In this document: positions 1 to 19,300 of the stretch, piece after piece
Numbering within the stretch: the stretch's first letter is position 1
How the letters are laid out: each line of letters begins with the position of its first letter
From: a virus
Reading direction: 5' to 3' (one strand)
Virus record (IMG/VR): IMGVR_UViG_3300046777_001606
Span: 32,001-96,000 of that record
Length of the DNA stretch: 64,000 nt
Notes under the pieces: model-generated
What the model saw: the letters and a program-made list of their open reading frames with translations, nothing else
What the model was told of the DNA's origin: nothing
Database searches by the model: none
Position numbers and translations under genes: made by a program

Positions 1-2
1 CT

Positions 3-3000
3 ACTAATGCCTCGTACTATGTTTCATTAGTTAATGCATATGCAGTAAAATTTCATAAGAGTTTTGAAGATGCTAACGCAGGAATTAATACAATTTCATT
101 AACTTCTTATGGAACTGGATCTCATAGAGTTAAATCCAAATTCAAAAAGAAAAAAATTGGAAGTATAAGTGTTAAAGATTCTGGATTTGGATATGAAAAT
201 AAAAAGATTATCGTAAATTCCTCAGGTATTAGTACTTTTAAAAATACATTATATGCGGAAAATCATGGATATTCGACTGGAGAATTAGTCAGATATTTTT
301 CAACAGATTCTACAGTAATTGGTGGATTATCAACATCAACTTCATATTATGTGACTGTAGTTGATGATAATAATTTTAAATTATCTCAGGTTGGTTCTGG
401 ACAAACCACAATTGATTTTTACCAAAAAACAAATCAATTTATAGATCTAACAGACACTGGAACGGGAAATCATATATTTAATTATCCACCTATAGAAGTT
501 TCAATTAAAGGAACTATTGGAGTAACAACTTTCTCTGGACAAAACTTTGAGGCAGTAATTAATCCAGTCTTTAGGGGAGAAATAAAATCTGTATTTGTTC
601 AGAATAAAGGTATTTCGTATGGATCCCAAAGTATTATCAATGATAACCGACAACCAGAATTTATTTTAGATTCTGGTTCGGGAGCTGAAGTTCTACCTGT
701 TATATTAAACGGAGCAATAATCAATGTTATTATTAGATCACCAGGGTCAAATTATAATTCTCCACCAAACTTAGTTGTAACTGGTAAAGGAACTGGTGCG
801 ATTTTAAGCCCAATACTCATTGATGGTAAATTAAAAGGAGTTTATGTTGTATATGGTGGATATGGATACGAAAATGGGTCAACTTTTATCAATGTTACTC
901 CATCAGGAACAGGATGTGAACTGGAAGCACAAATAAAAACATGGACTATTAATAAAGTACAAAGAAATATTACAACCAATCAAATTAGTGATGATGATGG
1001 ATTTATTGATAATGGAACCAATACTGACTATGGTCTCCAATATAGTCATGCATATGCACCAAGAACTTTAAGAAGACGTATTCTTTCTTCCAAAATCCAA
1101 AATGGTCAGTATGTTTTTTCACCAGATTTACAATTATCATCTGGTATTGAAATAGCATCATCTTCACACTCGCCAATTATTGGATACGCTTATGATGGAA
1201 ATCCAATATATGGTCCATATGGATATGATACTCCAGAGGGTGGAACAATTAGATCAATGATATCTAGTTATGAGCAATCTCTAAGTATTGAAAGACCAGA
1301 TACCAATTTATATCCTGCGGGGTTCTTTATTGAAGATTTTGTTTATACTGGTTCGGGTGATTTAGATGAACATAATGGAAGATATTGCGTAACTCCAGAA
1401 TATCCAAATGGTGTTTATGCTTATTTTGCAACTATATTTAATGGATCGCCAGATGGTTCTGGAATATTTGTAAGATACAAGAGACCTGTATTCCCATATT
1501 TTATTGGAGATTCTTATAAGTCAAAGCCAATTGATTTTAACTTTGATTATAGATCAAACCAAGATTTAACAGATATTAATGCTACAGGATGGGTACGAAA
1601 TACAACACCATATGGACTTTTAAAGTCAAAAACATCTTATGAATATGTAATTAACCCAACTAAAATAAAACAGCAGAAGACATACATCCAAGGTACTTCA
1701 AGAGGATCTGTAGATAGTATCGGTATTCTTACTGCTGGAAATTTATATCAGGTTAATGATAAAATTGTATTTGATCCCACCGTTCAGTCCAATATCAAAG
1801 CATCCGCAAAGGTATCTAAAGTTAAAGGTTCTTTTGTAACAACAGTTAGTTTAGCATCGTCGGTAACTAACGCGGAATTTATTTTATATAACTCAGGAAC
1901 AAATCTCATTGGTTTTACATCTTCACCTCATGGATTTTCTAACAATGATATTGTTAATGTTGTTATAAACGACAAAGAACAAAAAACTGGAAATATTAAA
2001 ACATCAACAAATAATCTGTACTTAACTGCAGGAGTTCCTATTCCTAGTGTAACAGGAGCAGTAACTTATTTCAAAGTAACTGGTAATTTAAATTATCCAA
2101 ACATAAAAGAAAATGATATTTACATTATCAATAATAAAGAACAAGTAAAAGTTTTAGAAATAGATGCAAAATCTTCTAGAATTAAAGTTCTGAGAAATAT
2201 TACTTCAGCTGGTGGTATAACATCATATTCATCTTCTCAAAGATTGATTGAAAAAACAAGAAGACTTCAAATTGATTTGGGAATTTCAACTACTTATCAG
2301 TATAATTTAAATAAAGAAATTTATTTTAACCCCAGAGAAGCACTGGGAATCGGAACAACATCCGGAGTAGGGATTACAACTACATTGCAATTTAGTGACC
2401 CTGGTGTTGGAATTGCTAGTATTACAATACCAACAAGAGCAATCTATCTTCCAAATCATGGATTGGAGACAAATACTGAACTAATTTATTCCGCTAATAG
2501 TGGAACTCCAATTTCAATATCTACAAATGGATCTGTTTCCTATCAAATTCCAGATAACTCAATAGTTTACTGTGCAAAATTTTCCAACGATTTGATCGGA
2601 ATTTCTACAACAAAATTGGGTATTGGTAGTACGGGGTCTTTTGTTGGGTTAGGATCAGAAGTTTCATATTTGATGTATTTTATTGCTACAGGTGTTGGAA
2701 ACACTCATAGCTTTAAAACTAATTATCCTAATGTATTAAAAGGAAAAATTACAAGAAATGTTGTTACAGTATCAACAGCATCTTCGCACGGATTGAGTAT
2801 AGACGATAAAATTGATTTAACTTGTATTGCAGGAATAACCACAAACGTTAAGATTGTATATAATGATTTTAATAGAAGACTTTTAGTAAATCCAAGAAAT
2901 TTTGTTGCATCTGATATTGACGTACAAAACGATATTATCACAATTCCAAACCATCAATATACGATGGGACAAAAAATTATTCACACATCAACTTCGCCAG

Positions 3001-6000
3001 CTAGTGGACTGTCAAATAATAAAATTTATTATGCAATTGTAGTTGATAAAGATAGAATAAAGTTGGCAGATACTTATTATGACTCTACAAATAAAATTCC
3101 AGCAACTGTAGGAATTGCTTCAACTTCTTTTGGAACAATTGCTGCTGTTAACCCACCAATAAAAATTGCAAGAAATCAAAATATTGTATTTGATGTTTCA
3201 GATTCTTCGTTATCTTTCATTAAAGATAATTTACAGTATTCTGCATTTGATCTGAATTTTTACGAAGACAGTAATTTTAGAAATCCATATCTTAAGAGTC
3301 CATCATCTGCAACTTTTGATGTTATAAAATCTGGAAATATTGGTATTGACTCTACGGCAAAAGTAACTCTTAATATTAAGCAAGATACTCCACAAAATCT
3401 TTATTATCAGTTAGAAGTAGTCAATAAAAATATTAATACTCAGATTAAAAAGGACTTATTTATTGATAACGAACTTGTTAATAATAACAATACATTAATT
3501 TTAGTTGATAGTAAGTATAATGGAACTCATACTGTAAGTGGAGTAACGTCAACTGCATTCACATTTAATATCGCAGAAACTCCAGAAGTTGGAAGTTATT
3601 CTTATATACAATCTAATTTATCGTACATTACGTCATCAGAAACTGCCTTTGGATCTATTGAAAAGATAACTATTTTAGATAGTGGATTTGGTTATGAAAT
3701 CGTTCCTAAAGTTTCTGAAATTATTTCGGATTATGGATTCGGGGCTCTTTTATATCCAAAGAGCGAGACAATAGGAAATATTAAAACTTCTAAAATTGCA
3801 GATATTGGATTTGATTATTCTGCAGATCTAACAATTAGACCATCTAGTAAGTTTCCAGATCTAATTAAAATTTCTCCATTAACTTCGTTTGAATCAATCG
3901 GAGTTACTACATCTGGTAGAAGATATTCAACGGTTCCAGATTTAATTGTTTTAGATGGATATACTGGAGAACTTGTAGATGATGTTGAATTATCATATGA
4001 TATTCGTAATAAAAAAGTCGAAATTATTACAAATACAAAATCTCTTTATAATGTTGAGCCTAGAATTATACCTATTAATAATTCTAATGGTGTTGGTATC
4101 AGTTCCGTATTTTTTGATACATCTTCAAAAGATGTAATTGTAACCTTGGGTTCTAGTTTCAGCAATGCCGCAGATTTCCCATTTGATATAGGCAGTAAAG
4201 TATTTGTTGAGGGTATTAGTGTTGGTGTAAATTCAACCGGTAAAGGATATAATTCTGATGGATATCAATATCAACTTTTTACAGTTACAAATACTGATCC
4301 AAATATTGGAGGAGCGGATCCTACTGTAACATACAACCTTACCGAATTCTTAGGGGTCGGAGAATTACCCGGAAGATATGATAGGGTTAATTCTGTAGGT
4401 AGAATTATACCAGAATTCCAATTAGCTAAATTTAATTCTGTTCTTGTTGATCCAAAAGAAATTGTTTATTTTGTTGGTGAAGAAATTTCTTCCACAGACA
4501 ATACAGGAATTGTAAACTCTATTGATACTAGGACTGATTTAATTAAGGTAACTTCAGGTGGAAATTTCTATATTGGAGATTTGCTTGAAGGTAAAACATC
4601 TGGAACTTTGGGTTATATTATTGATATTAAAAAATTTGAATCGAATTATGATGTTTTCCCAACAAGTTTAGTTAGAAAAGGTTGGAAAAAAGAAACTGGA
4701 ACTTTAAATAACTCATTCCAAAGAATCCATGATAGTGATTATCATCAGTATTTTTCGTATTCAGTAAAATCTCCAATTCCATACGATACTTGGAATGACG
4801 CGGTTAGCGCATTAAATCATACATCAGGATTTAAAAAGTTTAGTGATTTGATTATTGAAACAAATAACTTTGTGGGAATTGATACCAATCAAGATAATGC
4901 AACATTTGTTAGAATTGACTTTATTTCCGAAATGGACTTGAATTGTGTGACGGATTTTGATCTAGCTACAGAAAATAGTCTTCTTGTTAAAAATAAATAT
5001 GTTTCCAATGAAATAAGACCAATATCAAGAATTTTACTTGATTATCAACAGTCAATTAATAACAGAGTTTTAACAATTGATGATATTGGACCACAATTTA
5101 ATTCTGCAGAAAGATTTAATAAGTACACTATAATTGATAGCTTTGATTTATTTACTAATAATACATATAGAGCTAGAAAATACCTTGCATTTATAAGAGA
5201 TAAGAGATTTGTAAACGATAGGGAAGTTTTATTAATTTCTACACTTCATAATTCATTTGAAGGATATGTAACACAATATGGAAGAACAGAAACATCTTAT
5301 GATTTAGGATTTTTTGATTTTCTTGTTTTTGGTACGGTTGGTAATCTTGCATTTTATCCAAGAAAGTTTGCAGTTAATGATTTTGATGTTAATTTACTAA
5401 CCTATGATCTAAGAGACTCATTTGCTGGAATAGCGAGTACAAGTGTTGGAACAATTGCTAATATTAACTCTTCAACTGTTCAAATTGCATCTGGGGTTTC
5501 CACTGCGACTACTATTGTTAGTATTGCATCATCCTATAGATCTGCAAAACTTATTGTAGAGATTTCGGGAATTAATCCAGGAATTTCAAGTACGACTCCA
5601 TATTATTTCAGCGAAATAAGTTTACTTCATGATGGAACAAATGTTTATCAAAGTGAATACGGTAATTTGAGTAATGAACCATTCACTGCATCAGTTGGAG
5701 TTGGAATTTGTACTTTTAATGCATATCTTAGCGGATCTGATATCAAACTAGATTTAATACCAAATGCCGGGTTATCTACAACTATTAACGTTAATACTCT
5801 AGCTGTTTCAATAGGAAATAGCGCATTTACTGGTGTTGGAACTTTTGTCGTAGCAACATCAGAGATTAGTTCAAAATACACTTCAATTGCATCATCAACA
5901 TCACCAATTCAAAATAGCGTAGCTTCTTATTCGTATGATGCATATAGTGGTGGATATTTCATCTTTAGTATTGAAGATACAACAAATAACTCTTATGAGA

Positions 6001-9000
6001 TGTGTGAAGTTGTTGTGTGTAATGATAATACAGAAGCATATATTAATGACTTTGGAAATGTCCAATCAAGTGTTGGTCTTGGAACTTTTGGAGTAGGATT
6101 TAGTACATCACTTATAAACGTTTACTTTACTCCAAATCCAAATATTAACGTTCAAGTAAGAGCATATCAAAACGCTTTAGGGAATTATGACGATCAATAC
6201 CCAACGGAAATTGGATTTACAAATTCATCAATTACTGCAGATTCTGGTGTTTATGTTGGAACAAAACGAGATATTCAAAGAACTTTTAATTTAACTTATA
6301 AAAATAATGATATTTTCCAAAGAGCATTTAGTGGAGAAAGTTCTACAGTTGTTGATCTTACAAAAGATCAAATAAGACTTCCAAATCATTATTTTGTTAC
6401 TGGAGAAGAAGTTACTTATGTTCCTAGAGGAAAAGGAACTGTTGCTCCAATTGGAATTGCAACCACATCAATTCCTGGAATCGGGACTACCGACAAGTTA
6501 CCTTCAACTCTTTACATTGTTAAAGTTGATGAGTTAAACGTTAAAGTTGCAACATCAGCTAGCAATGCACTTAAGACAACTCCAGAGGTTCTTGATTTAA
6601 CTTCAGTTGGAATCGGAACCTCTCATATATTCATATGCAAAAATCAAAATGCTAGGGTTTTAATATCAATTGATAATGTTATTCAATCGCCAATTGTAGC
6701 AGCTGCCATTACTGCTTCATTATCTCAAAGAATAACTCCCGTCGATAATGTTATACAGGTTGTTTCTGGAATTTCATCTTATGCATCTGGAGAATTATTA
6801 AAGATTGATGATGAAATTATGTTGATTGAATCTCTTGGATTTGGTGCAACAAACGCAATACTTGTCCAAAGACCTTGGTTAGGAACTGTTCTTGCTACAC
6901 ACGAAGCAAATTCAGTAATTACTAAAATAACTGGAGATTATAATATTACAAATAATGCTATTAACTTTGTTGATGCTCCATATGGTCTAACACCACTTTC
7001 ATCAACAACCAATATAGCTCCAGAAAGAGATTGGATTGGTATCTCCACAAGATCTTCTTTTAATGGAAGATCTTTCATGAGATCTGGATTTCCAAATGGA
7101 ACTAACACTCCATATGCATTAAATTATGTTTTTGATAACATTTCAGATCAATTTAATGGGTTCTCAACATCATTTATTCTGAAAAATAACAAACAAAATA
7201 TTGCTGGTATTCAAACTAGCAACGCAATAATTCTACTTAAAGACGTATTTCAAGGACCAAATAGGATTGGTGGAGGAACAGTTGATGTAGTTTCAAATTA
7301 TGCGTTAACAGAAAATTCTGGAATTACAACAATAATTTTTAACGCCAGCGCATCACCAACAACTTATGATATTAATAACTCTAACATTCCAGTAGGTGGT
7401 GTTATTATATCTTTGGGATCATCAAGTATTGGGTGGAATGATTATCAAGCTCCTATGGGAGCTGGTGGTACAGCAATTGTCTCTGCTGCAGGAACTATTT
7501 CTGCGGTTCGCATCAATAATGCTGGTGGTGGATACAGAACTGGAATTCAAACCTTTGTTAGGGTTGGCGTTAGAACAAATGCCGAAGCAGGAAAGATTAC
7601 TTATGTTGGATTTGCATCAATTTCGGGAGGAAGAGTTCTTGGTGTAGCAATTACTAATGGTGGTGTTGGATTTGCATCAACCAATCCACCACAAGTAGTT
7701 ATAGAAAAACCTGTTCCCTATTCTAATATTCCATTAATATATTCATCTTCCAATCCTGGTGGTGCAGCGGCTGGAGTTGGAACAGGCGCTAAGATTGATC
7801 TTTATATAAGTCAAGAGGGAGAAGCAAAAGATTGGACTCTCATCAATCTTGGATATGGTTATAAACCTGGGGAAATATTAACTGTAGGTTTAGATACCAG
7901 TGGAGTTTTTGGAATTCCTAAAGAATATCTTGGGCGTTTTGCAGATGGTGGAAATCTTCTTTCTAAGAATAGAGCTTTTGTTCAGGAAGAAGTTGTAGCA
8001 TATGTGGAATTTAACTTCCCAGGAATTTCAACAAGTCCGACTTATGATCGTGCAAAATGTAAGAGAGATGTTGGTTATATTGTTGATGCAATTACATTTG
8101 ACTTAGCTTTTGGTGGAAATTCAGAATCAATTAGCGCAGGATTAGCATATTGGAATGCGGGTGCATCTTATGTTGCAAATGAAAGAGCAGAAACTATTTT
8201 TGCATATGATTATGTTAAGTTCATTGGTCAATATATTATCAACAACCAATCTCCACCAACACTTTATCAATTCCCAATTGTAGAGAATCAGGTTTTTGAT
8301 TTTACATTAATTCAAGATTATGAAAATAATAATGCAAATTATTTTCATAGAAGAAAAGATGCAAGAAATCTTATTGTTGGAAATAGACAGGAAATTATAG
8401 ATAGATCTCTTGCTGCAGTCGCAGTTGGATATACCAATTTCTACTTCCCAGGAGAAGCACAGACTACTCCAAGATCAAGATATTATGATGCACACAGATT
8501 AATTCAACTTAATAAGCAAGAAGTTATTGATAGATCTCTTGCATCCGTAGCAATTGGATATTCTGATTTCTACTTCCCAGGAGATGCTCAAACAACAAAT
8601 AGATCAAGATACTATGATGCATATAGATTAATTCAAAATAATAGATCTGAAATTGTTGGTAGCGCATGGACAGCAGTTTCTACTGCATATCCTGGAGTTA
8701 CAACAACGGCATCAAAATGCCAACGAGATCTTGGATATTTTGTTGATGCAGTTTCTACTGACGTATTTACTGGTGGTAACAATTATGCTAGAGAATTTAC
8801 ATTGCAATATTTTAGCAATGGAAGTTTGATTCCAAATGGAGTTCTTGGCGTTCAAACCGAATCCATTTTTGCTTTCCATTCTGCTCGTGATTTCATGAGA
8901 TTGGCTGTAAGAAATCAATTAACTTACACGGATCTCGGTATTAGTTCTGGTCCTCCAACATATGGAATTGGATCAACCGTTGGAATTGCTAGCACTGCAG

Positions 9001-11783
9001 CTTGTTATGATGTACAGTTGAACATTATCAGTTTGACTGGTATTGTTACAACTGTTCTCGGAGCTGCCTCGACAGCAAGCTTACCTGCTAGAAATCTTGG
9101 TAATTTCAATGTTACAGTTGGAGTTGGTAGTACAGTTGGATTTGGATCAACTTCATCTCCTGGCGGTCTTAAGTGTGCCCGAGATCTTGGATATTTTGTT
9201 GATGCAGTTTCTACTGACGTATTTACTGGAGGTAATAATTATTCTAGAAGCTTTACACTCAAATACTTTAGCAATGGAGCTCCACTTTCGCAAGGATTGA
9301 TTGGAGAAGAAGGTCCATCAATATTTGCCTTTAGATATGCTGGCGGATACATGAAGGATGCACTGACAAATCAACTTTATGTTAAGAATCTTGGAATTAG
9401 CTCTGGTCCAGCACTATACAATGGTGCTGGCGGAAATATTGGAGTTGGTAGCACTGCATCATGTAGAGATGTACAGAGCAATGTCGATAATCTTGTAGGA
9501 CTTGTTACTTCTATTATTGGCGCTGGTTCTAGTGTAGGAATTGCATCTACAAACTTTGGATATTTTAGAGTCAATTCACAAACAAACGTCACTAATGCAA
9601 CTATTGTTGGATTTGGAACTACAGTCGGAATTGGTTCCACCAATGTTGTTGGTGGACGTAAGTGTGCCCGCGATTTGGGTTATATTGTTGATGCAGTTGC
9701 ACAGGATGTTTCTTATGGATCTAATCAGCACATAGTTTATGCAACTAAGAAATATTTTAATGGCGCTGGTGTAGCAATTACTAATGGTCTTGTTGGAGAA
9801 ACACAACAATCTATCACGGCTTTCCATGCATTGCGAGATTATGCAAAACTTGCAATAACCAATCAACTTTATAACCAAGATTATAGTATAATCGCGGATC
9901 CAGTTAGCGGTATTAATAGTTCTCTATTATCTTGTGCGAATATAAGATCTAATATTGATACTCTTGTTGGTATTTTAACCGTCGCTATTGGAAGCAGTAG
10001 TTTGTCTGCAGTTCCAGCAGAAACTCTTGGTACTACTGATTGTGCTGACGTAAGATCTGCTCTTGCATCATATGTCGGAATTATTACCACAATTATTGGT
10101 ATCGGTACTTCTGCATGTCCAAGGGTCAGCAATCCATTGTCTAATCCAGTTTCCTTACCAACAACTTTAGGTGCAGCATCATCCACTAGCCCATTCCCAG
10201 AACTTCAAATCGAAGTTACTAAAACACAAAATACAAAATTTGCTGGATGGTCAATTGGAGATCTTGAAGTTTTTGATCCTCTAGATGATCTATTTGATGG
10301 AATAACTAAAAAATTCCCATTATTCTTAGGTGGTACTAGACAAGATATCAGAACCAAAAAAGGATCTACATTGGATATTCAGTCTAACTTACTAATATTC
10401 ATTAATGATATTCTCCAAGTTCCAGGACAAGCATATACATTTACTGGAGGAAGTGTAATCACCTTCTCAGAGGCACCAAGAAGTGGAGATACTTGTAAAA
10501 TCTTGTTCTATAAAGGAACAGGAACCATTGATGTTAGACTTGTAGATATTCTGGAAACAGTTAAAAAGGGTGATGATGTTCAGTTAGTCTCAGATCAATT
10601 CTATGAAACTGAGGATGAGAGAATTGTAAGTTTTATCAATTCTTCAGATAGCATCCAAACTGTAAACTATCGTGGTCTTGGAATATCCAATGATGATACT
10701 TTCAGAAGATCTTTAACTTGGTGCAGACAAACTGAAGATAGAGTGGTTGATGGTGAAGATGTTACAAAGGATAGAATTCTATACGAACCACTAATTAATC
10801 CATCAACAAATATTATAAGAAACGTTGGTATCGGATCTACAGTCATTTTTGTAGATAGCGTTCAACCATTCTTCAATGCAAATAATGAAAATACAACGGC
10901 AGAATATAGATCGAAACTCATTATGGTTTCACAAGATGTTAATCGTAAAGCAATTGCAGAAGCAGTAGTAAGTGTTGGTGGGACTGTAGAGTCTATTACT
11001 ATGATTGAGGGTGGAGCTGGATATATAACACCACCAGAAGTAAGTATTGCAACTCCTATTGGATTCGGAACCACTGCTAGAGCATATGCTACTGCAGTAC
11101 TATCTGGAGATACTGTAGGATCAATTATCGTTTCTAATGGAGGATTTGGATATATTGCAACATTTACTCCACCAGTAGTACATATTGCACCACCAGAAAT
11201 AATAAAAGAAACAATTTCTAATGTAACTTATCTTGGTGATTTTGGTATTATTGTGGGAATCGCAACAACTTCTGTTGGAGTAGCATCAACTGGTATAATA
11301 TTCGATTTTCTAATACCAAATGGTTCTGCAATTAGAGAGATTCTTTATACTGGAGTTGGAGCAACTGATATTAGTGGGATCCAAACTGGATATTATTTCA
11401 CTGTTAAGAATTCTAATATTGGATCTCCTGGATCGGGGTTAATATCATATGATAGAAGTAATAACTTTATTTCTGTTGGATCATCATACTTAGACAATAT
11501 CTATGAAGCATGTAACGTGGTTTTAGCAACAAAAACAATTGTTGGTCTAGGAACAACTACAATTGCTAGAGTGACTGTTAGTGTTAATGACAATTCTGGT
11601 TTATCTGGTCTTTCGTCTGGTTTTTATGGGGATTTTAGTTGGGGTAGAATCTCTGCAACTGAAAGACCAGTTCCACAATCCTTTAATGCATATACATCAT
11701 ATGGAATTGGTGGTATTTCTACCTCTGCTGTTATTAGAAGAGTTAATCCTCTTAGATATATTGGTTATACAACCACAGTATAA
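3..11783 (+). CDS. Giant baseplate wedge protein (gp7-like), 5'-partial; contains a YHYH-like domain and a phycobiliprotein-like insert
   Basis: The frame is open from position 3 (TNASYYVSLV...), so the GTG at 351 is not the true start. It lies directly upstream of gp8. It has repeated GxGY beta modules and the motifs HSPIIGYAYDGNPIYGPYGY and DLDEHNGRYCVTPEYPNGVYAYF. Confidence 0.8.
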   Translation, partial: TNASYYVSLVNAYAVKFHKSFEDANAGINTISLTSYGTGSHRVKSKFKKKKIGSISVKDSGFGYENKKIIVNSSGISTFKNTLYAENHGYSTGELVRYFSTDSTVIGGLSTSTSYYVTVVDDNNFKLSQVGSGQTTIDFYQKTNQFIDLTDTGTGNHIFNYPPIEVSIKGTIGVTTFSGQNFEAVINPVFRGEIKSVFVQNKGISYGSQSIINDNRQPEFILDSGSGAEVLPVILNGAIINVIIRSPGSNYNSPPNLVVTGKGTGAILSPILIDGKLKGVYVVYGGYGYENGSTFINVTPSGTGCELEAQIKTWTINKVQRNITTNQISDDDGFIDNGTNTDYGLQYSHAYAPRTLRRRILSSKIQNGQYVFSPDLQLSSGIEIASSSHSPIIGYAYDGNPIYGPYGYDTPEGGTIRSMISSYEQSLSIERPDTNLYPAGFFIEDFVYTGSGDLDEHNGRYCVTPEYPNGVYAYFATIFNGSPDGSGIFVRYKRPVFPYFIGDSYKSKPIDFNFDYRSNQDLTDINATGWVRNTTPYGLLKSKTSYEYVINPTKIKQQKTYIQGTSRGSVDSIGILTAGNLYQVNDKIVFDPTVQSNIKASAKVSKVKGSFVTTVSLASSVTNAEFILYNSGTNLIGFTSSPHGFSNNDIVNVVINDKEQKTGNIKTSTNNLYLTAGVPIPSVTGAVTYFKVTGNLNYPNIKENDIYIINNKEQVKVLEIDAKSSRIKVLRNITSAGGITSYSSSQRLIEKTRRLQIDLGISTTYQYNLNKEIYFNPREALGIGTTSGVGITTTLQFSDPGVGIASITIPTRAIYLPNHGLETNTELIYSANSGTPISISTNGSVSYQIPDNSIVYCAKFSNDLIGISTTKLGIGSTGSFVGLGSEVSYLMYFIATGVGNTHSFKTNYPNVLKGKITRNVVTVSTASSHGLSIDDKIDLTCIAGITTNVKIVYNDFNRRLLVNPRNFVASDIDVQNDIITIPNHQYTMGQKIIHTSTSPASGLSNNKIYYAIVVDKDRIKLADTYYDSTNKIPATVGIASTSFGTIAAVNPPIKIARNQNIVFDVSDSSLSFIKDNLQYSAFDLNFYEDSNFRNPYLKSPSSATFDVIKSGNIGIDSTAKVTLNIKQDTPQNLYYQLEVVNKNINTQIKKDLFIDNELVNNNNTLILVDSKYNGTHTVSGVTSTAFTFNIAETPEVGSYSYIQSNLSYITSSETAFGSIEKITILDSGFGYEIVPKVSEIISDYGFGALLYPKSETIGNIKTSKIADIGFDYSADLTIRPSSKFPDLIKISPLTSFESIGVTTSGRRYSTVPDLIVLDGYTGELVDDVELSYDIRNKKVEIITNTKSLYNVEPRIIPINNSNGVGISSVFFDTSSKDVIVTLGSSFSNAADFPFDIGSKVFVEGISVGVNSTGKGYNSDGYQYQLFTVTNTDPNIGGADPTVTYNLTEFLGVGELPGRYDRVNSVGRIIPEFQLAKFNSVLVDPKEIVYFVGEEISSTDNTGIVNSIDTRTDLIKVTSGGNFYIGDLLEGKTSGTLGYIIDIKKFESNYDVFPTSLVRKGWKKETGTLNNSFQRIHDSDYHQYFSYSVKSPIPYDTWNDAVSALNHTSGFKKFSDLIIETNNFVGIDTNQDNATFVRIDFISEMDLNCVTDFDLATENSLLVKNKYVSNEIRPISRILLDYQQSINNRVLTIDDIGPQFNSAERFNKYTIIDSFDLFTNNTYRARKYLAFIRDKRFVNDREVLLISTLHNSFEGYVTQYGRTETSYDLGFFDFLVFGTVGNLAFYPRKFAVNDFDVNLLTYDLRDSFAGIASTSVGTIANINSSTVQIASGVSTATTIVSIASSYRSAKLIVEISGINPGISSTTPYYFSEISLLHDGTNVYQSEYGNLSNEPFTASVGVGICTFNAYLSGSDIKLDLIPNAGLSTTINVNTLAVSIGNSAFTGVGTFVVATSEISSKYTSIASSTSPIQNSVASYSYDAYSGGYFIFSIEDTTNNSYEMCEVVVCNDNTEAYINDFGNVQSSVGLGTFGVGFSTSLINVYFTPNPNINVQVRAYQNALGNYDDQYPTEIGFTNSSITADSGVYVGTKRDIQRTFNLTYKNNDIFQRAFSGESSTVVDLTKDQIRLPNHYFVTGEEVTYVPRGKGTVAPIGIATTSIPGIGTTDKLPSTLYIVKVDELNVKVATSASNALKTTPEVLDLTSVGIGTSHIFICKNQNARVLISIDNVIQSPIVAAAITASLSQRITPVDNVIQVVSGISSYASGELLKIDDEIMLIESLGFGATNAILVQRPWLGTVLATHEANSVITKITGDYNITNNAINFVDAPYGLTPLSSTTNIAPERDWIGISTRSSFNGRSFMRSGFPNGTNTPYALNYVFDNISDQFNGFSTSFILKNNKQNIAGIQTSNAIILLKDVFQGPNRIGGGTVDVVSNYALTENSGITTIIFNASASPTTYDINNSNIPVGGVIISLGSSSIGWNDYQAPMGAGGTAIVSAAGTISAVRINNAGGGYRTGIQTFVRVGVRTNAEAGKITYVGFASISGGRVLGVAITNGGVGFASTNPPQVVIEKPVPYSNIPLIYSSSNPGGAAAGVGTGAKIDLYISQEGEAKDWTLINLGYGYKPGEILTVGLDTSGVFGIPKEYLGRFADGGNLLSKNRAFVQEEVVAYVEFNFPGISTSPTYDRAKCKRDVGYIVDAITFDLAFGGNSESISAGLAYWNAGASYVANERAETIFAYDYVKFIGQYIINNQSPPTLYQFPIVENQVFDFTLIQDYENNNANYFHRRKDARNLIVGNRQEIIDRSLAAVAVGYTNFYFPGEAQTTPRSRYYDAHRLIQLNKQEVIDRSLASVAIGYSDFYFPGDAQTTNRSRYYDAYRLIQNNRSEIVGSAWTAVSTAYPGVTTTASKCQRDLGYFVDAVSTDVFTGGNNYAREFTLQYFSNGSLIPNGVLGVQTESIFAFHSARDFMRLAVRNQLTYTDLGISSGPPTYGIGSTVGIASTAACYDVQLNIISLTGIVTTVLGAASTASLPARNLGNFNVTVGVGSTVGFGSTSSPGGLKCARDLGYFVDAVSTDVFTGGNNYSRSFTLKYFSNGAPLSQGLIGEEGPSIFAFRYAGGYMKDALTNQLYVKNLGISSGPALYNGAGGNIGVGSTASCRDVQSNVDNLVGLVTSIIGAGSSVGIASTNFGYFRVNSQTNVTNATIVGFGTTVGIGSTNVVGGRKCARDLGYIVDAVAQDVSYGSNQHIVYATKKYFNGAGVAITNGLVGETQQSITAFHALRDYAKLAITNQLYNQDYSIIADPVSGINSSLLSCANIRSNIDTLVGILTVAIGSSSLSAVPAETLGTTDCADVRSALASYVGIITTIIGIGTSACPRVSNPLSNPVSLPTTLGAASSTSPFPELQIEVTKTQNTKFAGWSIGDLEVFDPLDDLFDGITKKFPLFLGGTRQDIRTKKGSTLDIQSNLLIFINDILQVPGQAYTFTGGSVITFSEAPRSGDTCKILFYKGTGTIDVRLVDILETVKKGDDVQLVSDQFYETEDERIVSFINSSDSIQTVNYRGLGISNDDTFRRSLTWCRQTEDRVVDGEDVTKDRILYEPLINPSTNIIRNVGIGSTVIFVDSVQPFFNANNENTTAEYRSKLIMVSQDVNRKAIAEAVVSVGGTVESITMIEGGAGYITPPEVSIATPIGFGTTARAYATAVLSGDTVGSIIVSNGGFGYIATFTPPVVHIAPPEIIKETISNVTYLGDFGIIVGIATTSVGVASTGIIFDFLIPNGSAIREILYTGVGATDISGIQTGYYFTVKNSNIGSPGSGLISYDRSNNFISVGSSYLDNIYEACNVVLATKTIVGLGTTTIARVTVSVNDNSGLSGLSSGFYGDFSWGRISATERPVPQSFNAYTSYGIGGISTSAVIRRVNPLRYIGYTTTV
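8724..9229 (+). repeat. Identical 50-bp direct repeat (8724-8773 and 9180-9229) encoding RDLGYFVDAVSTDVFTG
   Basis: cgagatcttggatattttgttgatgcagtttctactgacgtatttactgg is read at both positions. Confidence 0.9.
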
Positions 11784-13363: not shown

Positions 13364-16300
13364 ATGCCCCAAAAAACAAACCTCAATGTTTCTCCATATT
13401 TTGATGATTTTGATCCGAGAGATAATTACTATAAAGTCCTTTTTAAGCCAGGATATCCTGTTCAGGCTAGAGAATTAACAACGTTACAATCAATTCTTCT
13501 CAACCAATCAGAATCCTTTGGTAAGCATATATTTAAGGAAGGATCTGTAGTAATTCCTGGACAAGTAAGATACGACAATCCAATATACGCAGTTGAAATT
13601 GAATCAGAATTTAATGGAATTCCTATTTCATTATATTTTGATGAGATGCTCAACAAAACTGTTATTGGGGCAGATAGTGGAGTTAAAGCAACTATTTTTT
13701 ATTTACTAAAGAATACCGAATCTGAAAGAGGAAATTATACAATTTATGTAAAATATATTTCTGCAGGTGGGACAGACTTTACTAATAAAAAGTTCTTTGA
13801 TAATGAAAATTTAATCTTAGATACTGATTTAACTTATAGTGGGATTACAATTCCAAGTGGACAAGAATTTGTAAAAACAATCCAAACAAATGCTACCTCC
13901 GAAGGATCTTCTGCAACTGTAGCAGATGGTGTATATTTTATCAGAGGTATTTTCGCAAACGTCAATACTCAAACTATTCTTTTAGATCAGTACGGAACTT
14001 CACCTTCATATAGAGTTGGATTTACTGTTGTTGAGTCCATAGTTACTTCAGATGATGATCCAGATTTATATGATAATGCACAAGGATTTTCAAATTTCTC
14101 TGCTCCTGGAGCAGATAGATTTAAATTAGACTTAATTTTCTCTAAAAAAGAAATCACAGATACTGATACAGATTCTTTTGTTGAAATATTAAGAGTAACA
14201 AACGGAGTACCTGAGTATTTAAATTTAAACCCACAATATAATATTCTCAGAGAAGAAATTGCAAGAAGAGTTTATGATCAATCTGGTGATTTCTTTGTAA
14301 AACCATTTACTCTTTATTTAAGAGACAGTTTAAATAATAGAACAACAACAGATGGTCTTTATTATGATGATCAGATTACGATCAATGGTAATAAACCATC
14401 TGACAATTTAATGATTTATGAAATTGGTCCAGGAAAAGCATACGTTAATGGATTTGATATTGAAACCAGATCAAAAAGATTTTTAGACGTAGAAAAACCA
14501 AGAACAACAAATACAATACAAGCAAATAATGTAACATATAATGCAGGGTTACTTTTCCCTGTAAATAATGGATATGGAGCTCCTCCCATAGGATTGGGAA
14601 CAGATGTAACATTAAGTTTGATGAATTCTAGAAAGAATTCTGATCCATCTGTTGCGGCAGGAACTACTATCGGATTAGCTCGTATATATGATTTTGTTCC
14701 CGAATCAAATTATGAAAATGCATCTAGTAGATTATCATTGAGATTATTTGATGTTCAAACTTACACTGTGATTGGTCTAACAACATCTATAACTCAATCA
14801 ACTCCAGCTGTTATAAAAGGTTCCAGAAGTAAAGCAACTGGATATTTGAGATCCAGCGTTACTGGTTCAAGTTCTTTAACTCTATATGACGTATCTGGAT
14901 CATTTATAGAAAATGAAGCGATTTCTATAAATGGCATTTCAAATGGAAGATTAATTAAAACAGTAACTGATTATGATATCTCAGATGTAAGATCTGTATA
15001 CGGAAAAGTTGGAACAACTACTTTTACTGCAGATACTATCTTAGAAAATAAGCAACTAATAGCTCCTGCAGGATCGACATTTCAAATTACCGCAAGATTT
15101 AGTGGTATAAGCACGGTATCCTGTGGATTAAACACCACTTTTATTAATAGTGTAAAAGTAAATGATATTATCACATATTCAAGTCCAAATCCAACTTCAG
15201 TACCAATTTATAATAGAGTAGCAAGTATTGGTGCTGGCGGTACATTTTTTACAATTGCTGGTCTCACCACCGTATCTGGTATTTGTGATGGAACTTTACC
15301 AGCATCTTCGGTTACAGTTTCAAATATTACAAAACTTTATGGTTCTGTTTATAATCAATCAGATGCCTCTTTATTAACTTTACTCCCACAATCAGTAATT
15401 TCTAATATTTCTTTAGAAAATAATATTTTACGCCAAAGAATTGACTTCAAAACGGTAACTATTACTGCATCTTCACTAACTATTCAAATTACTGAACCAG
15501 ATTTATATTTCGAGTCATTTGATGAAGATAGATTTGTTATTAGTTATAGTGATGGAACTATTGAACCATTAAGAAGAGATAAGTATAGTTTAGATGTCAC
15601 AGGAAAAATACTAACCTTCAATGGGTTATCTAAAACAACAGGAACAGCAAACGTAATTGCAACGGTTAAGAATTTAAAACCTAACTCCAAAAATAAAAAG
15701 TTCAATAAAGTTTCAACATTAGTCATTGATAGATCAAGATTAACATCGTCCGGTATTGGATCAACAACATTAAACGATGGATTAACCTATAGTCAAGTCT
15801 ATGGTACTAGAGTACAAGATGAAGATATTTGTCTTAACGTTCCCGATGTTGTAAGAGTTTTAGCTGTATATGAATCGGATTCCACATCAGATCCATCAAT
15901 TCCAAAATTAGAATTATCTTCATTTACAGGTCAAACAAACTCTACAGCAGATTTTAACTTAGGTGAAGAACTTTTAGGAAAAACTAGTGGATCTGTTGCT
16001 TTAGTTGTTAATAAAGTTAATGCAACTAATATAGAAGTTGTGTATTTAAATGCATTTGAATTTGTTGAGGGTGAAGAAATAGTTTCGAAAGAAACTGCTG
16101 TAACTGCAAAAATAACAACGAAATATACAGTAAGTAAAAATATAACACAAAATTATAATTTCGATAACGGGCAAAGAGCTACATTATATGATTATGGTAG
16201 AATTATTAGAAAAACTAATGTTGCTGCACCAACTAAAAAGATAGAAATAATATTCCAATACTATAGTATTGATAGCAATGATACTGGCGAATTTATAACT

Positions 16301-19300
16301 GTAAACAGTTATCCAGAAAGTTCATATAATATGGATATTCCATATTATGAAAACAATAGAGTAACTGATTATATTGATATAAGACCAAGAGTAGATGTTT
16401 ATAATCCATCAACAGCAACATTGTCTCCATTTGAATTTTCAACAAGAAGATTTGACGGAGCAGGAACATATTCAAAATATATTCTTGCACCTGATGAGAA
16501 TTTAAGTCTCAGTTATTCTTATTACCTGGGAAGAATTGATAGGTTGCTTTTGAATCCAGATGGAACATTTGAAGTTGCACAGGGAATTCCTGCAGATGAT
16601 CCAATTCCACCACTATTAAAGGCAAATACATTAGATATTGCGAAGATTAATATTCCACCATACTTGTTTAATATTAAAAACGCACAAGTAGACATGTCTG
16701 TACATAAGAGATACAGAATGTCTGATATTTCAATTCTTGAAGATAGAATTAGAAGAGTAGAAGAATATACGACGCTTTCTATGTTAGAAAGCAAAACAGA
16801 GAATTTAAAAATTAAAGATGCAGCTACGGGATTAGATAGATTTAAGTCAGGATTTTTTGTTGATAATTTTAGCACTCACGATTATCTCGATTTGAAAAAT
16901 ATCTTATTTAGATCTTCTATTGATAAGAGTACAAATACTTTAAGACCAACAAATTATACATCTTCTTTAGATTTACAACTTGGATCAGAAGCTATTCTTG
17001 GAGTAACGACTTCATTTTCGTCAACAGCTGATCATGGATTTGTTTCAGACTTGGGTTCAATTGGAGTCAAAAAAACAGGAGATCTTGTAACTCTAGCATA
17101 TACTGAAAAATTATATTTCCAACAAATATATGCAACAAGAACCGAAAATGTTACGCCTTTCTTAGTCAAATATTGGACCGGAGCCATTACATTAAATCCA
17201 CCAATGGATAACTGGGTAGATGAAGCTGCAGTTAGATCGACTAGTTTTAGAGAAGTAACAGAAATTACTCCACTTCCAGACATTAATATAACAAATGTAA
17301 ACAACATCACAGAAAATAGAGATGTATTTATCGATAATACTAATTTAACAGTTAATCCATCAGCGTCTTTTGATTGGATTGGAAATGCTAACACCTTAAT
17401 TCAACAAAGGGTAGGAAGCGGTAGAGTCTCAATTAATACGAGTGCAAGCAATATTCGCTTAGAAATTAGAGGGCGTATTAATGGAGCAGAAGCAGAATTT
17501 GTACGTAGAGTTCTTCCACCAGATGCCGCTAGAGATTTTATTAATAGATCTAGTAGCAATGGTATTGCATTTATCAATTTTAATCCAAGAAGAGGTCAAT
17601 TTACAAATATTAGAGAAACAACAAATGTATCTACATCTGTAAATACAACCTCAAATACTGTTACTACGGTTATTCCACCGGTTGTAACAACAAATGATGT
17701 CATTACGGAATCAGTATCGCATTATACTCAAATAATAAGATTTTTAAGAAGTAGAAATATTGAATTTGATGTTAAAGGATTAAAACAAAGAACGATTTTT
17801 TATCCATTCTTTGATTCAATAGACATATCAAGATATATCACACCAAAACTTCTAGAGATAAGAATGGTATCTGGTAAATTTGTTGCTGGAGAAACAGTAG
17901 AAAGTGATCCATTATTCACAAGAAGAAAAGCCAGATTTAGATTGTGTAGTCCAAATCATGAATATGGTCCATCGACAAATCCAACAAGTACTTTTGCATT
18001 AAATCCTTATGATCAACAGGTTTTCCCATCAAATTATACTGAGTCTTCAACTGTACTTAATGTAGATACCCACTCATTACAACTTCCATCAGAAACCGAA
18101 TTCTATGGATGTGTTGATGTTAATATGCCTTTGATAGGACAATCATCTGGAGCAAGAGCTGTTGTAACAAGAGTAAGACTACTTTCATCAAATAATGGAA
18201 GATTAGTCGGATCATTCTTTGTTCCTGATCCAAATTCTCCAGGTAATCCACAATTTATTAATGGGACAAATACATTTACATTAATTGACACTCCGACACT
18301 AAATCCTGCTGCTACTGCAGCTGGAACAGAAGTTGTTTCCTCTGAAAGTAGTGCTGAAGAAGACTTTACTTCTAGTGGACAACTTAATATAACTGAAACT
18401 AATGTATTAACTACAAGAAATATTAGAATTACTCCAGCTAGAAATGTTAACACAACAACGATAACAAACACTACAACAAACACTACAACAAGAACTAGAG
18501 CTGGAACACAAATATCTCCAGTATGGGAGGTTTGGGACCCGCTCGCACAATCATTCTATGTTCCCGATGAAAGTGGAATATTCTTAACTTCTGTAGAGGT
18601 TTTCTTTGAAACTAAGGATAATAATGGAATCCCCGTAACATTACAAATTAGACCAATGGTTAATGGTCTTCCAAGTGATATGGTTGTTCCATTTTCTGAA
18701 GTAACCCTGACTCCAGATCAAATAAGACTTTCTGGAAATGGAACTGTAGCTACTAAATTTACTTTCCCAAGTCCGGTATACTTATCGGGACCTCAACAAC
18801 AGGAGATAAGACAAGCTCCTATTGGTAGTCAACAATCTTCCCAATTCTGTGTAGTTTTATTATCTCTTAGTGCAGAATATAGAGTCTTTATTGCTAGACT
18901 TACAGAAAATGATATTATTAGTGGTGTTAAGATAACTAAACAACCAACTCTTGGAAGTCTGTTTAAATCGCAAAATGGATCTACGTGGTCTCCAAGTCAA
19001 CTAGAAGATTTGAAATATAATTTATACAGAGCAGAATTTGTAAATGAAGGTCTCCTCAGATTCTATAATCCAAAATTATCTGCTAAAAATAAAAAAGTTA
19101 CTGTTTTACCAGCAAATGGTGTTGTTCCATTATCCAAAAAAATTATTGTTGGATTAGGATCCACTGGATATAGTGCAACAAATATAGTTCCAGGAGTAAC
19201 TTTGATTCAGGGATCTGCAACGGGAACTTTAACTGCTATTGGCGGAAGTATTACCGCAGGAACAGGAGTAACAGTTACAAATCCAGGGACTGGATATACA

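What the first reader, a model, noticed from the sequence alone, without database searches (positions are those of the whole stretch)
8349..10110. Russian-doll (nested) domain architecture of the helical insert
Seen: the units are not simple tandem repeats. Domain 1 has its N-helix and KCKRD segment but no closing Cys helix. Three N-helices then occur in a row at ~43-aa (129-nt) spacing (DARNLIVGNRQEIIDRSL, DAHRLIQLNKQEVIDRSL, DAYRLIQNNRSEIVGSAW). Three KCxRD...closing-helix units follow, then one extra closing helix (DCADVRS). The counts balance at 4 N-helices, 4 KCxRD and 4 closing helices. Inference: each domain was inserted into a loop of the previous one, giving a stalk that projects from the baseplate with both termini at its base. 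An identical 50-bp repeat (8724/9180) suggests recent duplication or conversion, so copy number may vary between relatives.
Basis: partly seen in the sequence, partly recalled or inferred. Interest (0 to 1): 0.75.

Follow-up and report, generated by a model that had tools for sequence, protein, structure and literature searches.

The report
Nested phycobiliprotein domains in phage gp7
The giant baseplate protein gp7 of a freshwater T4-like cyanophage carries four copies of its host's light-harvesting phycobiliprotein fold, apparently threaded one inside another like Russian dolls; related phages change the number of copies but keep the pieces in balance.

Summary
Window 7935-10139 lies inside a 4,837-aa gp7 homologue and reads N,K,G | N,N,N | KGC,KGC,KGC | C. 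That gives 4 N-units, 4 KCxRD helices and 4 closing Cys helices. The N-units recur every 129 nt, and 8724-8773 is identical to 9180-9229.

The units are phycobiliprotein-like globin domains (Pfam PF00502, 32 bits). N is helices A-B, K is helix E with the Cys84-type CxRD motif, and C is helix H.

In AlphaFold2 models the innermost domain (N4+KGC2) matches phycobiliproteins at Z 16-17. The outermost domain (N1-K1-G1 plus the last helix, 600 residues apart) aligns as one globin at Z 10-12.

The pairing of the two middle domains could not be read from the models. It is inferred from four results:
- Counts are balanced like matched brackets in 68 of 94 relatives, to depth 10.
- The last-N to first-K distance is constant.
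- A coupling test favours nested pairing (Stouffer Z 4.7).
- A docking prediction gave weak support.

The middle units arose by separate tandem duplications or conversion, not by serial insertion of whole domains.

This scan has already reported the same architecture on other cyanophage DNA. I found no published description. The closest published analogue of the nesting is the six-level Si3 insertion of cyanobacterial RNA polymerase.

The parts
3..11783 (+). gp7-like baseplate wedge protein. The window holds 3,926 aa and is open at the 5' end; the full ORF in the record is 4,837 aa.
   Evidence: ORF. (phrog_2885, baseplate wedge subunit). (open frame of 4,837 aa). (the gene order gp6-gp7-gp8-VrlC of P-HM2 matches, and gp7 is collinear).
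7938..8015 (+). Domain 1 N-unit (helices A-B).
   Evidence: helices 2-11 and 13-27. N HMM hit.
8049..8240 (+). Domain 1 body: KCKRD helix E (Cys42 at 8058-8060), F' and G helices. No closing helix follows.
   Evidence: phmmer alignment to the C-phycocyanin alpha Cys84 region.
8340..8429 (+). N2, the A-B helices assigned to domain 2 (partner KGC4).
   Evidence: helices 136-149 and 151-165, pLDDT 80-86. The pairing is inferred.
8469..8558 (+). N3, the A-B helices assigned to domain 3 (partner KGC3).
   Evidence: helices 179-192 and 194-208; 129-nt tandem with N2. The pairing is inferred.
8598..9065 (+). Domain 4, the innermost and contiguous domain: N4 (A-B) plus KCQRD helix E, F', G and closing helix H (Cys262, Cys357).
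   Evidence: VIA Z 16-17, rmsd 2.0 A, 130-140 residues aligned to phycobiliprotein beta chains, model 222..376. Pfam PF00502 best stretch.
9165..9524 (+). KGC3: helices E-H of domain 3 (Cys414, Cys510).
9654..9995 (+). KGC4: helices E-H of domain 2 (Cys577, Cys667). This is the most conserved unit across relatives.
   Evidence: 62-74% identity to the last KGC of the k=2, 3 and 5 relatives.
10041..10103 (+). Extra closing helix (DCADVRS..., Cys703), which serves as helix H of domain 1.
   Evidence: sensor globins align to model range 1..727 with 114-131 residues, Z 10-11.8; collinear with the closing helix and downstream flank of the contiguous domain in P-HM2 gp7.
8724..8773 (+). 50-bp stretch identical to 9180-9229 (RDLGYFVDAVSTDVFTG coding).
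   Evidence: separate 50-nt unitig with about double depth.
9180..9229 (+). Second copy of the identical 50-bp stretch.

Best explanation
The 735-residue segment is a stack of four phycobiliprotein-like globin domains built as one chain hairpin.

The chain first lays down helices A, B, E, F' and G of domain 1. It then climbs by contributing only the A-B helix pair (the N-unit) to domains 2 and 3. It makes a complete domain 4 at the tip. It descends by supplying helices E-H (the KGC unit) to domain 3 and then to domain 2. It ends with helix H of domain 1.

The pairs are therefore N4/KGC2, N3/KGC3, N2/KGC4 and N1-K1-G1/last helix. The whole array enters and leaves through one basal domain of gp7.

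Shown in models: domains 1 and 4. Inferred: domains 2 and 3.

The likely role is a stiff projection on the baseplate whose length can vary, because two crossing connections clamp each level. Related phages lengthen or shorten it by adding or losing one N-unit together with one KGC unit, through tandem duplication, deletion or conversion.

All four domains keep the phycobiliprotein Cys-x-Arg-Asp bilin-site motif. Whether pigment is bound is unknown.
For: 1. **Fold.** Pfam PF00502 scores 32.1 bits against a cut-off of 22.2, E 1.3e-7; relatives reach 42 bits. A profile of 42 innermost domains hits only phycocyanin and allophycocyanin chains in the PDB, with N aligned to helices A-B and KCxRD to Cys84. 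The AF2 model has pLDDT 73 and pTM 0.71. R222-376 aligns to phycobiliprotein beta chains at Z 16-17, rmsd 2.0 A, 130-140 residues.
2. **Outer nest.** In the same model, RsbR, globin-coupled-sensor and photocobilin globins align over model range 1..727. Values are 114-131 residues aligned, Z 10-11.8, rmsd 2.8-3.3 A. R1-104 alone cannot supply that many residues, so the last helix completes domain 1. P-HM2 gp7 has a contiguous N-K-G-C domain at the homologous place. Its two ends and its downstream flank align to the window's N1-K1-G1 and to the last helix plus flank.
3. **Balance.** Of 94 distinct relatives with closing helices, 68 parse automatically as balanced bracket words, with depths from 2 to 10. 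Examples are NKG NN KGC KGC C (24 loci), N4(KGC)4, N5(KGC)5 and N10 K7 N2 K5.
4. **Geometry.** The last-N to first-K distance stays at 29-30 aa for N-runs of 2 to 10. The N-N period is 43 aa and the K-K period 140-153 aa. A parallel pairing would need a linker that grows with k.
5. **Coupling test.** The model was trained only on 743 contiguous N-K pairs from simple tandem proteins. For the 12-unit array P0003, nested pairing scores z 3.0 (p 0.002), and the in-register score is 27.5 against 12.7 or less for every shift. In 18 of 20 clusters z is above 0, Stouffer Z 4.7.
6. **Docking.** N2-N3 was docked against KGC3-KGC4. The verdict was weak support: score 0.39, best of 3 controls 0.00. The mark was reached by 58 of 80 solved complexes and 2 of 110 mismatched pairs. 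At 0.60 or under it was reached by only 7 of those 80 solved complexes and by both mismatches that passed. The runs agree in at least 61% of contacts, and the partner's pLDDT is at least 51. My own alignment was used.
7. **Reproducibility.** The sub-construct R135-694 has pTM 0.78. It matches an independently predicted S-CAM1 tail-protein model at TM 0.59 over the whole query. One domain alone could not give that value.
Against: - No coordinates, contact map or PAE were available. The N3/KGC3 and N2/KGC4 contacts were therefore never read from a model.
- In the window itself the coupling score separates nested from crossed only marginally, 165.1 against 160.2.
- N2 and N3 are about 70% identical, so sequence alone can hardly tell them apart.
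- The docking support is weak: one of three runs scored 0.02.
- 26 of 94 automatic architecture strings are not balanced. Seven are truncated and most of the rest are off by one. Several of these were recovered by hand at the expected 43-aa spacing, but not all were checked.
- The clusters in the coupling test are related, so Stouffer Z overstates independence.
- AF2 saw phycobiliproteins in training.
Confidence: 0.72

Rival explanations
1. The KGC units are self-sufficient four-helix domains strung in tandem. The three extra N-units form a separate helical linker or bundle. Only domains 1 and 4 are complete globins, and equal counts reflect co-duplication rather than pairing.
For: In both models every globin or phycobiliprotein alignment chose domain 4 or domain 1. 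KGC3 alone aligned to generic four-helix proteins at Z 6.7-6.8. The docking of N2-N3 on KGC3-KGC4 has only weak support, score 0.39 against a best control of 0.00.
Against: - N2 and N3 are homologous to N4 (45-49% identity). N4 occupies the A-B position of a phycobiliprotein fold.
- A KGC unit without A-B helices would expose the faces that these helices cover.
- N and KGC numbers match across depths 2-10, including N10 K7 N2 K5. N and KGC units duplicate with different periods, 129 nt and about 456 nt, so co-duplication in one event is not possible.
- The coupling scores favour specific N-K partners.
- pLDDT of N2 and N3 is 80-90 and pTM is 0.71-0.78.
Confidence: 0.12
2. Each N-unit does complete a KGC unit, but in another order: sequential (N2/KGC2, N3/KGC3, N4/KGC4) or crossed (N2/KGC3, N3/KGC4).
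For: Counts alone cannot tell the orders apart. N2 resembles N3 and KGC2 resembles KGC3, which fits a sequential register. With only three levels, the 33-44-residue low-confidence linkers could span a neighbouring domain.
Against: - N4 and KGC2 form a contiguous canonical domain, which excludes the fully sequential order.
- The last-N to first-K distance does not grow with k up to 10.
- The nested order beats the crossed order in 16 of 18 k=3 arrays. It is the best or second best of all orders in most k=4-5 arrays.
- The first N and the last KGC are the units conserved across k.
Confidence: 0.06
3. The pairing is between chains. In the assembled baseplate or fibre, N-units of one gp7 copy complete KGC units of a neighbouring copy (three-dimensional domain swapping).
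For: The proteins that carry these arrays are oligomeric virion parts. The DSL-LC03 homologue ends in a Peptidase_S74 tail-fibre chaperone domain. Balance of counts is required equally under this model. The docking test in trans gave weak support, score 0.39 against a best control of 0.00.
Against: - Monomer models reach pTM 0.71-0.78 with domain 1 closed within one chain.
- The short, uniform linkers fit neighbour-to-neighbour steps within one chain.
- The array occurs in hosts of different symmetry, gp7 and beta-helix tailspike-like proteins.
Confidence: 0.07

Closest known systems
Phycobiliprotein subunits (Pfam PF00502; CpcA/B, CpeB, ApcE bilin-binding domain)
   Same: - The same globin-like fold, with helices A, B, E, F', G and H. 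Domain 4 scores Z 16-17, rmsd 2.0 A.
- The sequence match is over the Pfam cut-off.
- The KCxRD-GY motif aligns with the Cys84 bilin site of C-phycocyanin alpha.
- A second conserved Cys sits at the start of helix H. By offset in the alignments (model 357 of 222..376 against chain 33..172) it lies near the beta-155 site. That placement is my inference.
- The ApcE domain aligns with chain range 49..239 for a 147-residue construct. From memory, it carries a loop insertion between helices B and E, the site used here by domains 2 and 3.
   Different: - These domains are parts of a virion protein, not of a phycobilisome.
- They have no X-Y hairpin of their own.
- Identity is 15-19% outside the motif.
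- The domains are split and nested, and there are no separate alpha and beta chains.
- Pigment binding is untested.
- The cysteine is lost in some relatives: Trp in domain 1 of L004 and L005, and SQYKSD in L051.
Si3 insertion of cyanobacterial RNA polymerase beta' (RpoC2)
   Same: Recursive insertion of one domain family into itself (A1-B1-C-B2-A2...), giving an elongated multi-level nest with both ends at the base. Six levels are reported, and nodes with several inserts occur (PMC13114784). The phage arrays likewise show sibling inserts, such as N10 K7 N2 K5.
   Different: - The fold differs: sandwich-barrel hybrid motifs, not globins.
- It sits in a cellular enzyme, not a virion.
- The phage arrays reach depth 10 in relatives and vary in depth between close relatives.
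Flagellin D0-D3 hairpin (from general knowledge)
   Same: The chain runs out through the N-terminal halves of successive domains and back through the C-terminal halves. The variable tip is inserted at the turn and both termini lie at the base.
   Different: Flagellin's domains are of different folds. The array here repeats a single fold with regular 43-aa and about 150-aa periods.
T4 gp7 baseplate wedge protein
   Same: Gene position between the gp6 and gp8 homologues and a PHROG baseplate-wedge match.
   Different: It is about four times longer than T4 gp7 (about 1,030 aa, from memory). The globin array lies outside the part matched by phrog_2885 (residues 1-2525).

Membership tests
Phycobiliprotein family (Pfam PF00502) | Sequence match above Pfam's gathering score | tested here: met
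   32.1 bits against 22.2 for window 7935-10139, E 1.3e-7. On the whole ORF the score is 22.3 bits. Relatives score 26-42 bits.
Phycobiliprotein family (Pfam PF00502) | Globin-like fold with helices A, B, E, F', G and H | tested here: met
   predicted domain 4 against solved beta chains, Z 16-17, rmsd 2.0 A, 130-140 residues. Foldseek probability 1.00, target TM about 0.6. This rests on a predicted model only.
Phycobiliprotein family (Pfam PF00502) | Cys84-type attachment cysteine with Arg86 and Asp87 (CxRD) | tested here: met
   KCKRD, KCQRD and KCARD (twice), aligned to AKCARDIGYY of C-phycocyanin alpha. K, C, R and D are at least 90% conserved in 42 innermost domains.
Phycobiliprotein family (Pfam PF00502) | Covalently bound bilin | not testable with these tools
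   This needs expression with bilin synthesis and lyases, or spectroscopy of virions.
Phycobiliprotein family (Pfam PF00502) | N-terminal X-Y helices and alpha-beta / trimer assembly | tested here: inconclusive
   The domains start at helix A (chain residue 33 in most rows). In some rows the preceding N-unit's second helix overlays chain residues 1-32 (model 194..376; 58..247).
Recursive (nested) domain insertion, as in RNA polymerase Si3 | A host domain whose two sequence parts flank the insert and fold together | tested here: met
   Domain 1: globin alignments span model 1..727 with 114-131 residues. It is collinear with a contiguous domain in P-HM2 gp7.
Recursive (nested) domain insertion, as in RNA polymerase Si3 | An inserted domain that is itself a host for a further insert (at least two levels) | tested here: inconclusive
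   Domains 2 and 3 are inferred from balanced counts, constant linkers, coupling scores and a weak docking pass. No alignment spanning N2..KGC4 or N3..KGC3 was returned.
Recursive (nested) domain insertion, as in RNA polymerase Si3 | A complete, contiguous innermost domain | tested here: met
   R222-376.
T4-type gp7 baseplate wedge protein | Position between gp6 and gp8 homologues and similarity to cyanophage gp7 | tested here: met
   phrog_2885, 2,498 bits; the next ORF matches phrog_438; order and collinearity with P-HM2 gp7. The gp6 side lies upstream of the window and was not inspected.

The most novel reading that the evidence does not exclude
The nested globin stack may be a pigment-bearing, light-responsive appendage of the virion. 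Each level would keep a functional Cys-x-Arg-Asp bilin pocket, so the stack would hold several bilins in a rigid rod on the baseplate or fibre. Light absorbed there would change how the phage binds its host.

This would explain the unexplained light-dependent adsorption of cyanomyoviruses such as S-PM2 and P-HM2. Both carry these domains, S-PM2 in its tail fibre p091 and P-HM2 in gp7. Published work suspects tail fibres but names no receptor (PMC6628666).

Nesting depth would then tune both reach and chromophore number.
Probability: 0.13. Interest if true: 0.93.

Novelty: new variant of a known kind. Interest (0 to 1): 0.7.

Why it matters
Self-nesting of one fold over many levels is very rare. 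A survey of 2.7 million domains highlights the six levels of RNA polymerase Si3 as its example of a complex nest (PMC13114784).

This family nests a globin fold to depth 4 in the window and depth 10 in relatives. Natural variants differ by one level, which makes it a ready-made system for three questions:
- how discontinuous domains fold;
- how balance is kept during repeat expansion;
- how phages tune the length of a baseplate or fibre projection.

It also shows that cyanophages have recruited their host's light-harvesting fold into the virion, with the bilin-site motif as its best-conserved part. In the phage collection the domain occurs only in cyanophages, 154 records. That makes the old question of light-dependent adsorption directly testable.

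For annotation, these arrays explain large 'hypothetical' stretches of gp7, 'short tail fibre' and 'tail protein' genes.

Tried and rejected
1. **Reading domains 2 and 3 from the models.** No coordinates or contact maps are delivered. VIA alignments of the full model and of the sub-construct R135-694 returned only domain 4, domain 1 or single KGC units. This leaves the middle pairs untested; it does not count against them.
2. **Masking domain 4 in the alignment.** I used fragment rows so that the aligner would report another domain. MAFFT misplaced the N-terminal fragments onto KGC4 (A5), so the alignment was not used.
3. **Copy-number variants in reads.** Only Logan contigs were available. 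No contig joins across the 50-bp or 129-nt repeats of this phage. The listed joints carry other letters between their sides or come from lower-identity records, so they look like other organisms. A 2,327-nt contig of another study lies collinear on 7900-9441 with 103 other letters in 1,542, so it carries both 50-bp copies. Contigs cannot show rare variants.
4. **Closing helix against the PDB.** A phmmer search with the closing helix alone found no hit. Its equivalence to the beta-155 site therefore rests only on offsets.
5. **Bilin genes in this phage.** CpeT (PF06206) and bilin reductase (PF05996) were not found in the phage record. The record is only 53% complete, so this says nothing.
6. 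**Literature.** Searches for phycobiliprotein-like domains in phage fibres, for PF00502 with phage, and for nested globin domains gave no relevant paper.
7. **Metagenome scan.** The scan with the single protein gave one locus only.
8. **Names of relatives.** All proteins looked up are 'hypothetical'.
Full report
**Context.** The window is bases 32001-96000 of a 107.8-kb IMG/VR virus record from a freshwater metagenome, estimated 53% complete. The finding lies in one giant + strand ORF. The window holds positions 3-11783 (3,926 aa), and the full frame is 4,837 aa. The ORF matches the PHROG 'baseplate wedge subunit' family 2885. A phrog_438 baseplate wedge gene and a 2,547-aa gene follow it. That is the gp7-gp8-VrlC order of Prochlorococcus phage P-HM2, whose gp7 (4,454 aa) is collinear with this ORF. 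So the ORF is a gp7 homologue of a T4-like cyanomyovirus. The nearest isolates by DNA are Synechococcus phages.

**Observation.** I call the translation of 7935-10139 'R' (735 aa).
- An N-unit at R8 is followed by KCKRD (Cys42) and a G helix, with no closing helix.
- Three N-units follow at R146, R189 and R232, exactly 43 aa apart.
- Three units follow of KCxRD helix, G helix and closing Cys helix (Cys262/357, 414/510, 577/667).
- A last closing helix carries Cys703.
- These eight cysteines and Cys728 are the only ones in R.
- The 129-nt tandem (80% identity), the 456-nt-spaced pair (71% over 239 nt) and the identical 50 bp at 8724-8773 = 9180-9229 are all real.
- In the probable source run, the assembly graph breaks at that 50-mer, which has about double depth.

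**What the units are.** Pfam's Phycobilisome-protein model matches R above its curated cut-off, 32.1 bits. phmmer aligns KCKRDVGY... with AKCARDIGYY around the bilin-binding Cys84 of C-phycocyanin alpha. A profile of 42 innermost domains from relatives hits only phycocyanin and allophycocyanin chains. There the N-unit lies on helices A-B and KCxRD on helix E.

An AlphaFold2 model of R (26-row alignment, pLDDT 73, pTM 0.71) has two helices per N-unit. By Foldseek it matches phycoerythrin and phycocyanin beta chains at probability 1.0. By VIA-align, R222-376 matches them at Z 16-17, rmsd 2.0 A over 130-140 residues. N therefore equals A+B, K equals E, G equals G, and the closing helix equals H.

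In the phage collection the domain occurs in 154 records, all cyanophages. They are annotated as short tail fibre, tail fibre, tail protein or gp7.

**The outermost and innermost levels.** N4 plus the first KGC unit is contiguous and is the complete domain just described. This already excludes a fully sequential register and a bundle made of all three N-units.

The representative-wide structural search gave the second reading. Phycobiliproteins chose R216/222-376. RsbR, globin-coupled sensors, a sporulation-inhibitor globin and photocobilin globins aligned with model range 1..727. Their values were 114-131 residues, Z 10-11.8, rmsd 2.8-3.3 A. The N-terminal part has only about 104 residues and the range ends at the last helix. 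In the model, therefore, the last helix packs onto N1-K1-G1 to close a globin, across a 600-residue insert.

Comparative evidence agrees. P-HM2 gp7 has a contiguous N-K-G-C domain at the same place. Its front aligns to the window's N1-K1-G1. Its closing helix plus downstream flank aligns to the window's last helix plus flank.

In other relatives the whole array sits between the N-terminal cap motif and the first turns of what looks like a beta-helix tailspike domain. That reading is from sequence only. One of these proteins ends in a Peptidase_S74 fibre chaperone domain.

**The middle levels.** I could not read N2 and N3 contacts, because no coordinates are delivered. In both models every alignment chose domain 4, domain 1 or a lone KGC unit. 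The case for N3/KGC3 and N2/KGC4 is indirect, and rests on five lines.

1. *Balance.* I built small HMMs for N, K, G and C and annotated 150 database relatives and 90 loci.
   - One class is plain tandem N-K-N-K... proteins with up to 34 units.
   - The other class shows runs of N followed by equal runs of KGC: NKG NN KGC KGC C (24 loci), the window's k=3 form, N4(KGC)4, N5(KGC)5 and N10 K7 N2 K5.
   - Of 94 distinct sequences, 68 parse as balanced bracket words with depth 2 to 10.
   - Seven of the rest are truncated and most others are off by one element.
   - Several missing N-units were found by hand at the expected 43-aa spacing.
2. *Geometry.* The last-N to first-K distance is 29-30 aa whatever the run length. 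The N-N period is 43 aa and the K-K period 140-153 aa. If each domain takes one N and one KGC, linkers reach only a neighbouring domain and the stack is linear, then the nested order is the only solution. That is an inference.
3. *Couplings.* A mean-field coupling model trained only on 743 contiguous N-K pairs of the plain tandem class finds true partners better than chance: top rank in 210 of 711 cases against 91 expected. Applied to the nested class, it gives these results.
   - It prefers nested to crossed in 16 of 18 k=3 arrays.
   - For the 12-unit array it gives z 3.0, p 0.002. The in-register score is 27.5 against 12.7 or less for every shift.
   - It is positive in 18 of 20 clusters, Stouffer Z 4.7.
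   - In the window itself the margin is small, 165.1 against 160.2.
4. *Docking.* N2-N3 against KGC3-KGC4 as separate chains gave weak support: score 0.39, best of 3 controls 0.00.
   - The mark was reached by 58 of 80 solved complexes and 2 of 110 mismatched pairs.
   - At 0.60 or under it was reached by only 7 of those 80 and by both mismatches that passed.
   - Contact agreement was at least 61% and partner pLDDT at least 51.
5. *Reproducibility.* The sub-construct R135-694 has pTM 0.78. It overlays an independent predicted model of an S-CAM1 tail protein at TM 0.59 over the whole query. That implies a shared arrangement of several domains.

**History.** Relatives with k = 2, 3 and 5 share the first array N (74-78% identity to N2), the last N, and the last KGC (62-74% to KGC4). 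The middle units resemble their sequence neighbours: N3 is closest to N2, and KGC2 to KGC3. The insertion site also differs between levels, G-H loop for domain 1 and B-E loop for the others. The array therefore grew by tandem duplication or conversion of N-units and of KGC units, with selection restoring balance. It did not grow by repeated insertion of a whole domain. The perfect 50 bp points to recent conversion. A 93%-identical strain in another study is collinear over 7900-9441.

**Comparison and novelty.** The fold is that of phycobiliproteins. The recursive self-nesting has a published analogue in the Si3 insertion of cyanobacterial RNA polymerase, with six levels (PMC13114784). I found no paper describing phycobiliprotein-like or nested globin domains in phage virion proteins.

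Earlier notes of this same scan report the same architecture in at least eight other cyanophage genomes. They gave me the Si3 lead, which I checked in the paper, and a CpeT co-occurrence claim. I could not evaluate that claim here, because no CpeT was found in a half-complete record.

Published work leaves light-dependent adsorption of S-PM2 and P-HM2 unexplained and suspects tail fibres (PMC6628666). Both phages carry these domains. S-PM2 p091 reads NKG NNNN KGC KGC KGC KG, and P-HM2 gp7 has two contiguous domains. Pigment binding is speculation until tested.

**Verdict.** The nested architecture is the best explanation. It is shown for the outer and inner levels in models and inferred for the two middle levels. 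The proposed insertion history is not supported.

Noticed in passing
window 1149-1433 (ORF residues 383-477): A YHYH domain (PF14240, E 6e-24) lies near the start of the windowed part of gp7.
   Followed up: no
P0009, P0010, P0011, P0013 (database proteins of 4,254-6,382 aa): Giant proteins carry up to 34 phycobiliprotein-like units in plain tandem order (N-K-N-K...). Their later helices are too divergent for my G and C models. Their origin, phage or cell, is unknown; all are annotated 'hypothetical' where named.
   Followed up: partly
L041:~6650-8050 (segment residues K1261 to G1728): In the N10 K7 arrays of L041 and L052, about 467 residues sit between the KCxRD helix and the G helix of one unit. 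This would be a third insertion site within the fold.
   Followed up: no
L004, L005 (domain 1); L051, L056 (innermost domain): The CxRD cysteine is replaced in some relatives (NWKSG in domain 1; SQYKSD / SQFKTD in the inner domain), while the closing-helix Cys stays. The two cysteines are therefore not strictly co-conserved.
   Followed up: no
L001:8485-11484 (DSL-LC03) and L002, L007 flanks: In many relatives the array is flanked by an ANGDDxNDG...KTLKKAAQLA motif upstream and IIVEAGDYxEDNP downstream. This looks like a beta-helix tailspike domain interrupted at its cap. The module has therefore moved between different host proteins (gp7 here).
   Followed up: partly
window 13364-21007: A 2,547-aa ORF after gp8 matches phrog_358 over its full length. 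It sits where P-HM2 has its 'VrlC protein'.
   Followed up: no
P0104 (479 aa, NN KGC KGC): A partial protein with a k=2 array is deposited as 'Minisyncoccia bacterium' MAG on a 1.4-kb contig. It is probably binned phage DNA.
   Followed up: no
window 7604-7686, 9118-9151, 9533-9640: Short Gly-rich 'VGFGST / IGIAST' repeats recur in the linkers between units and upstream of the array (families D5, D10-D12). They have low pLDDT in the models.
   Followed up: no
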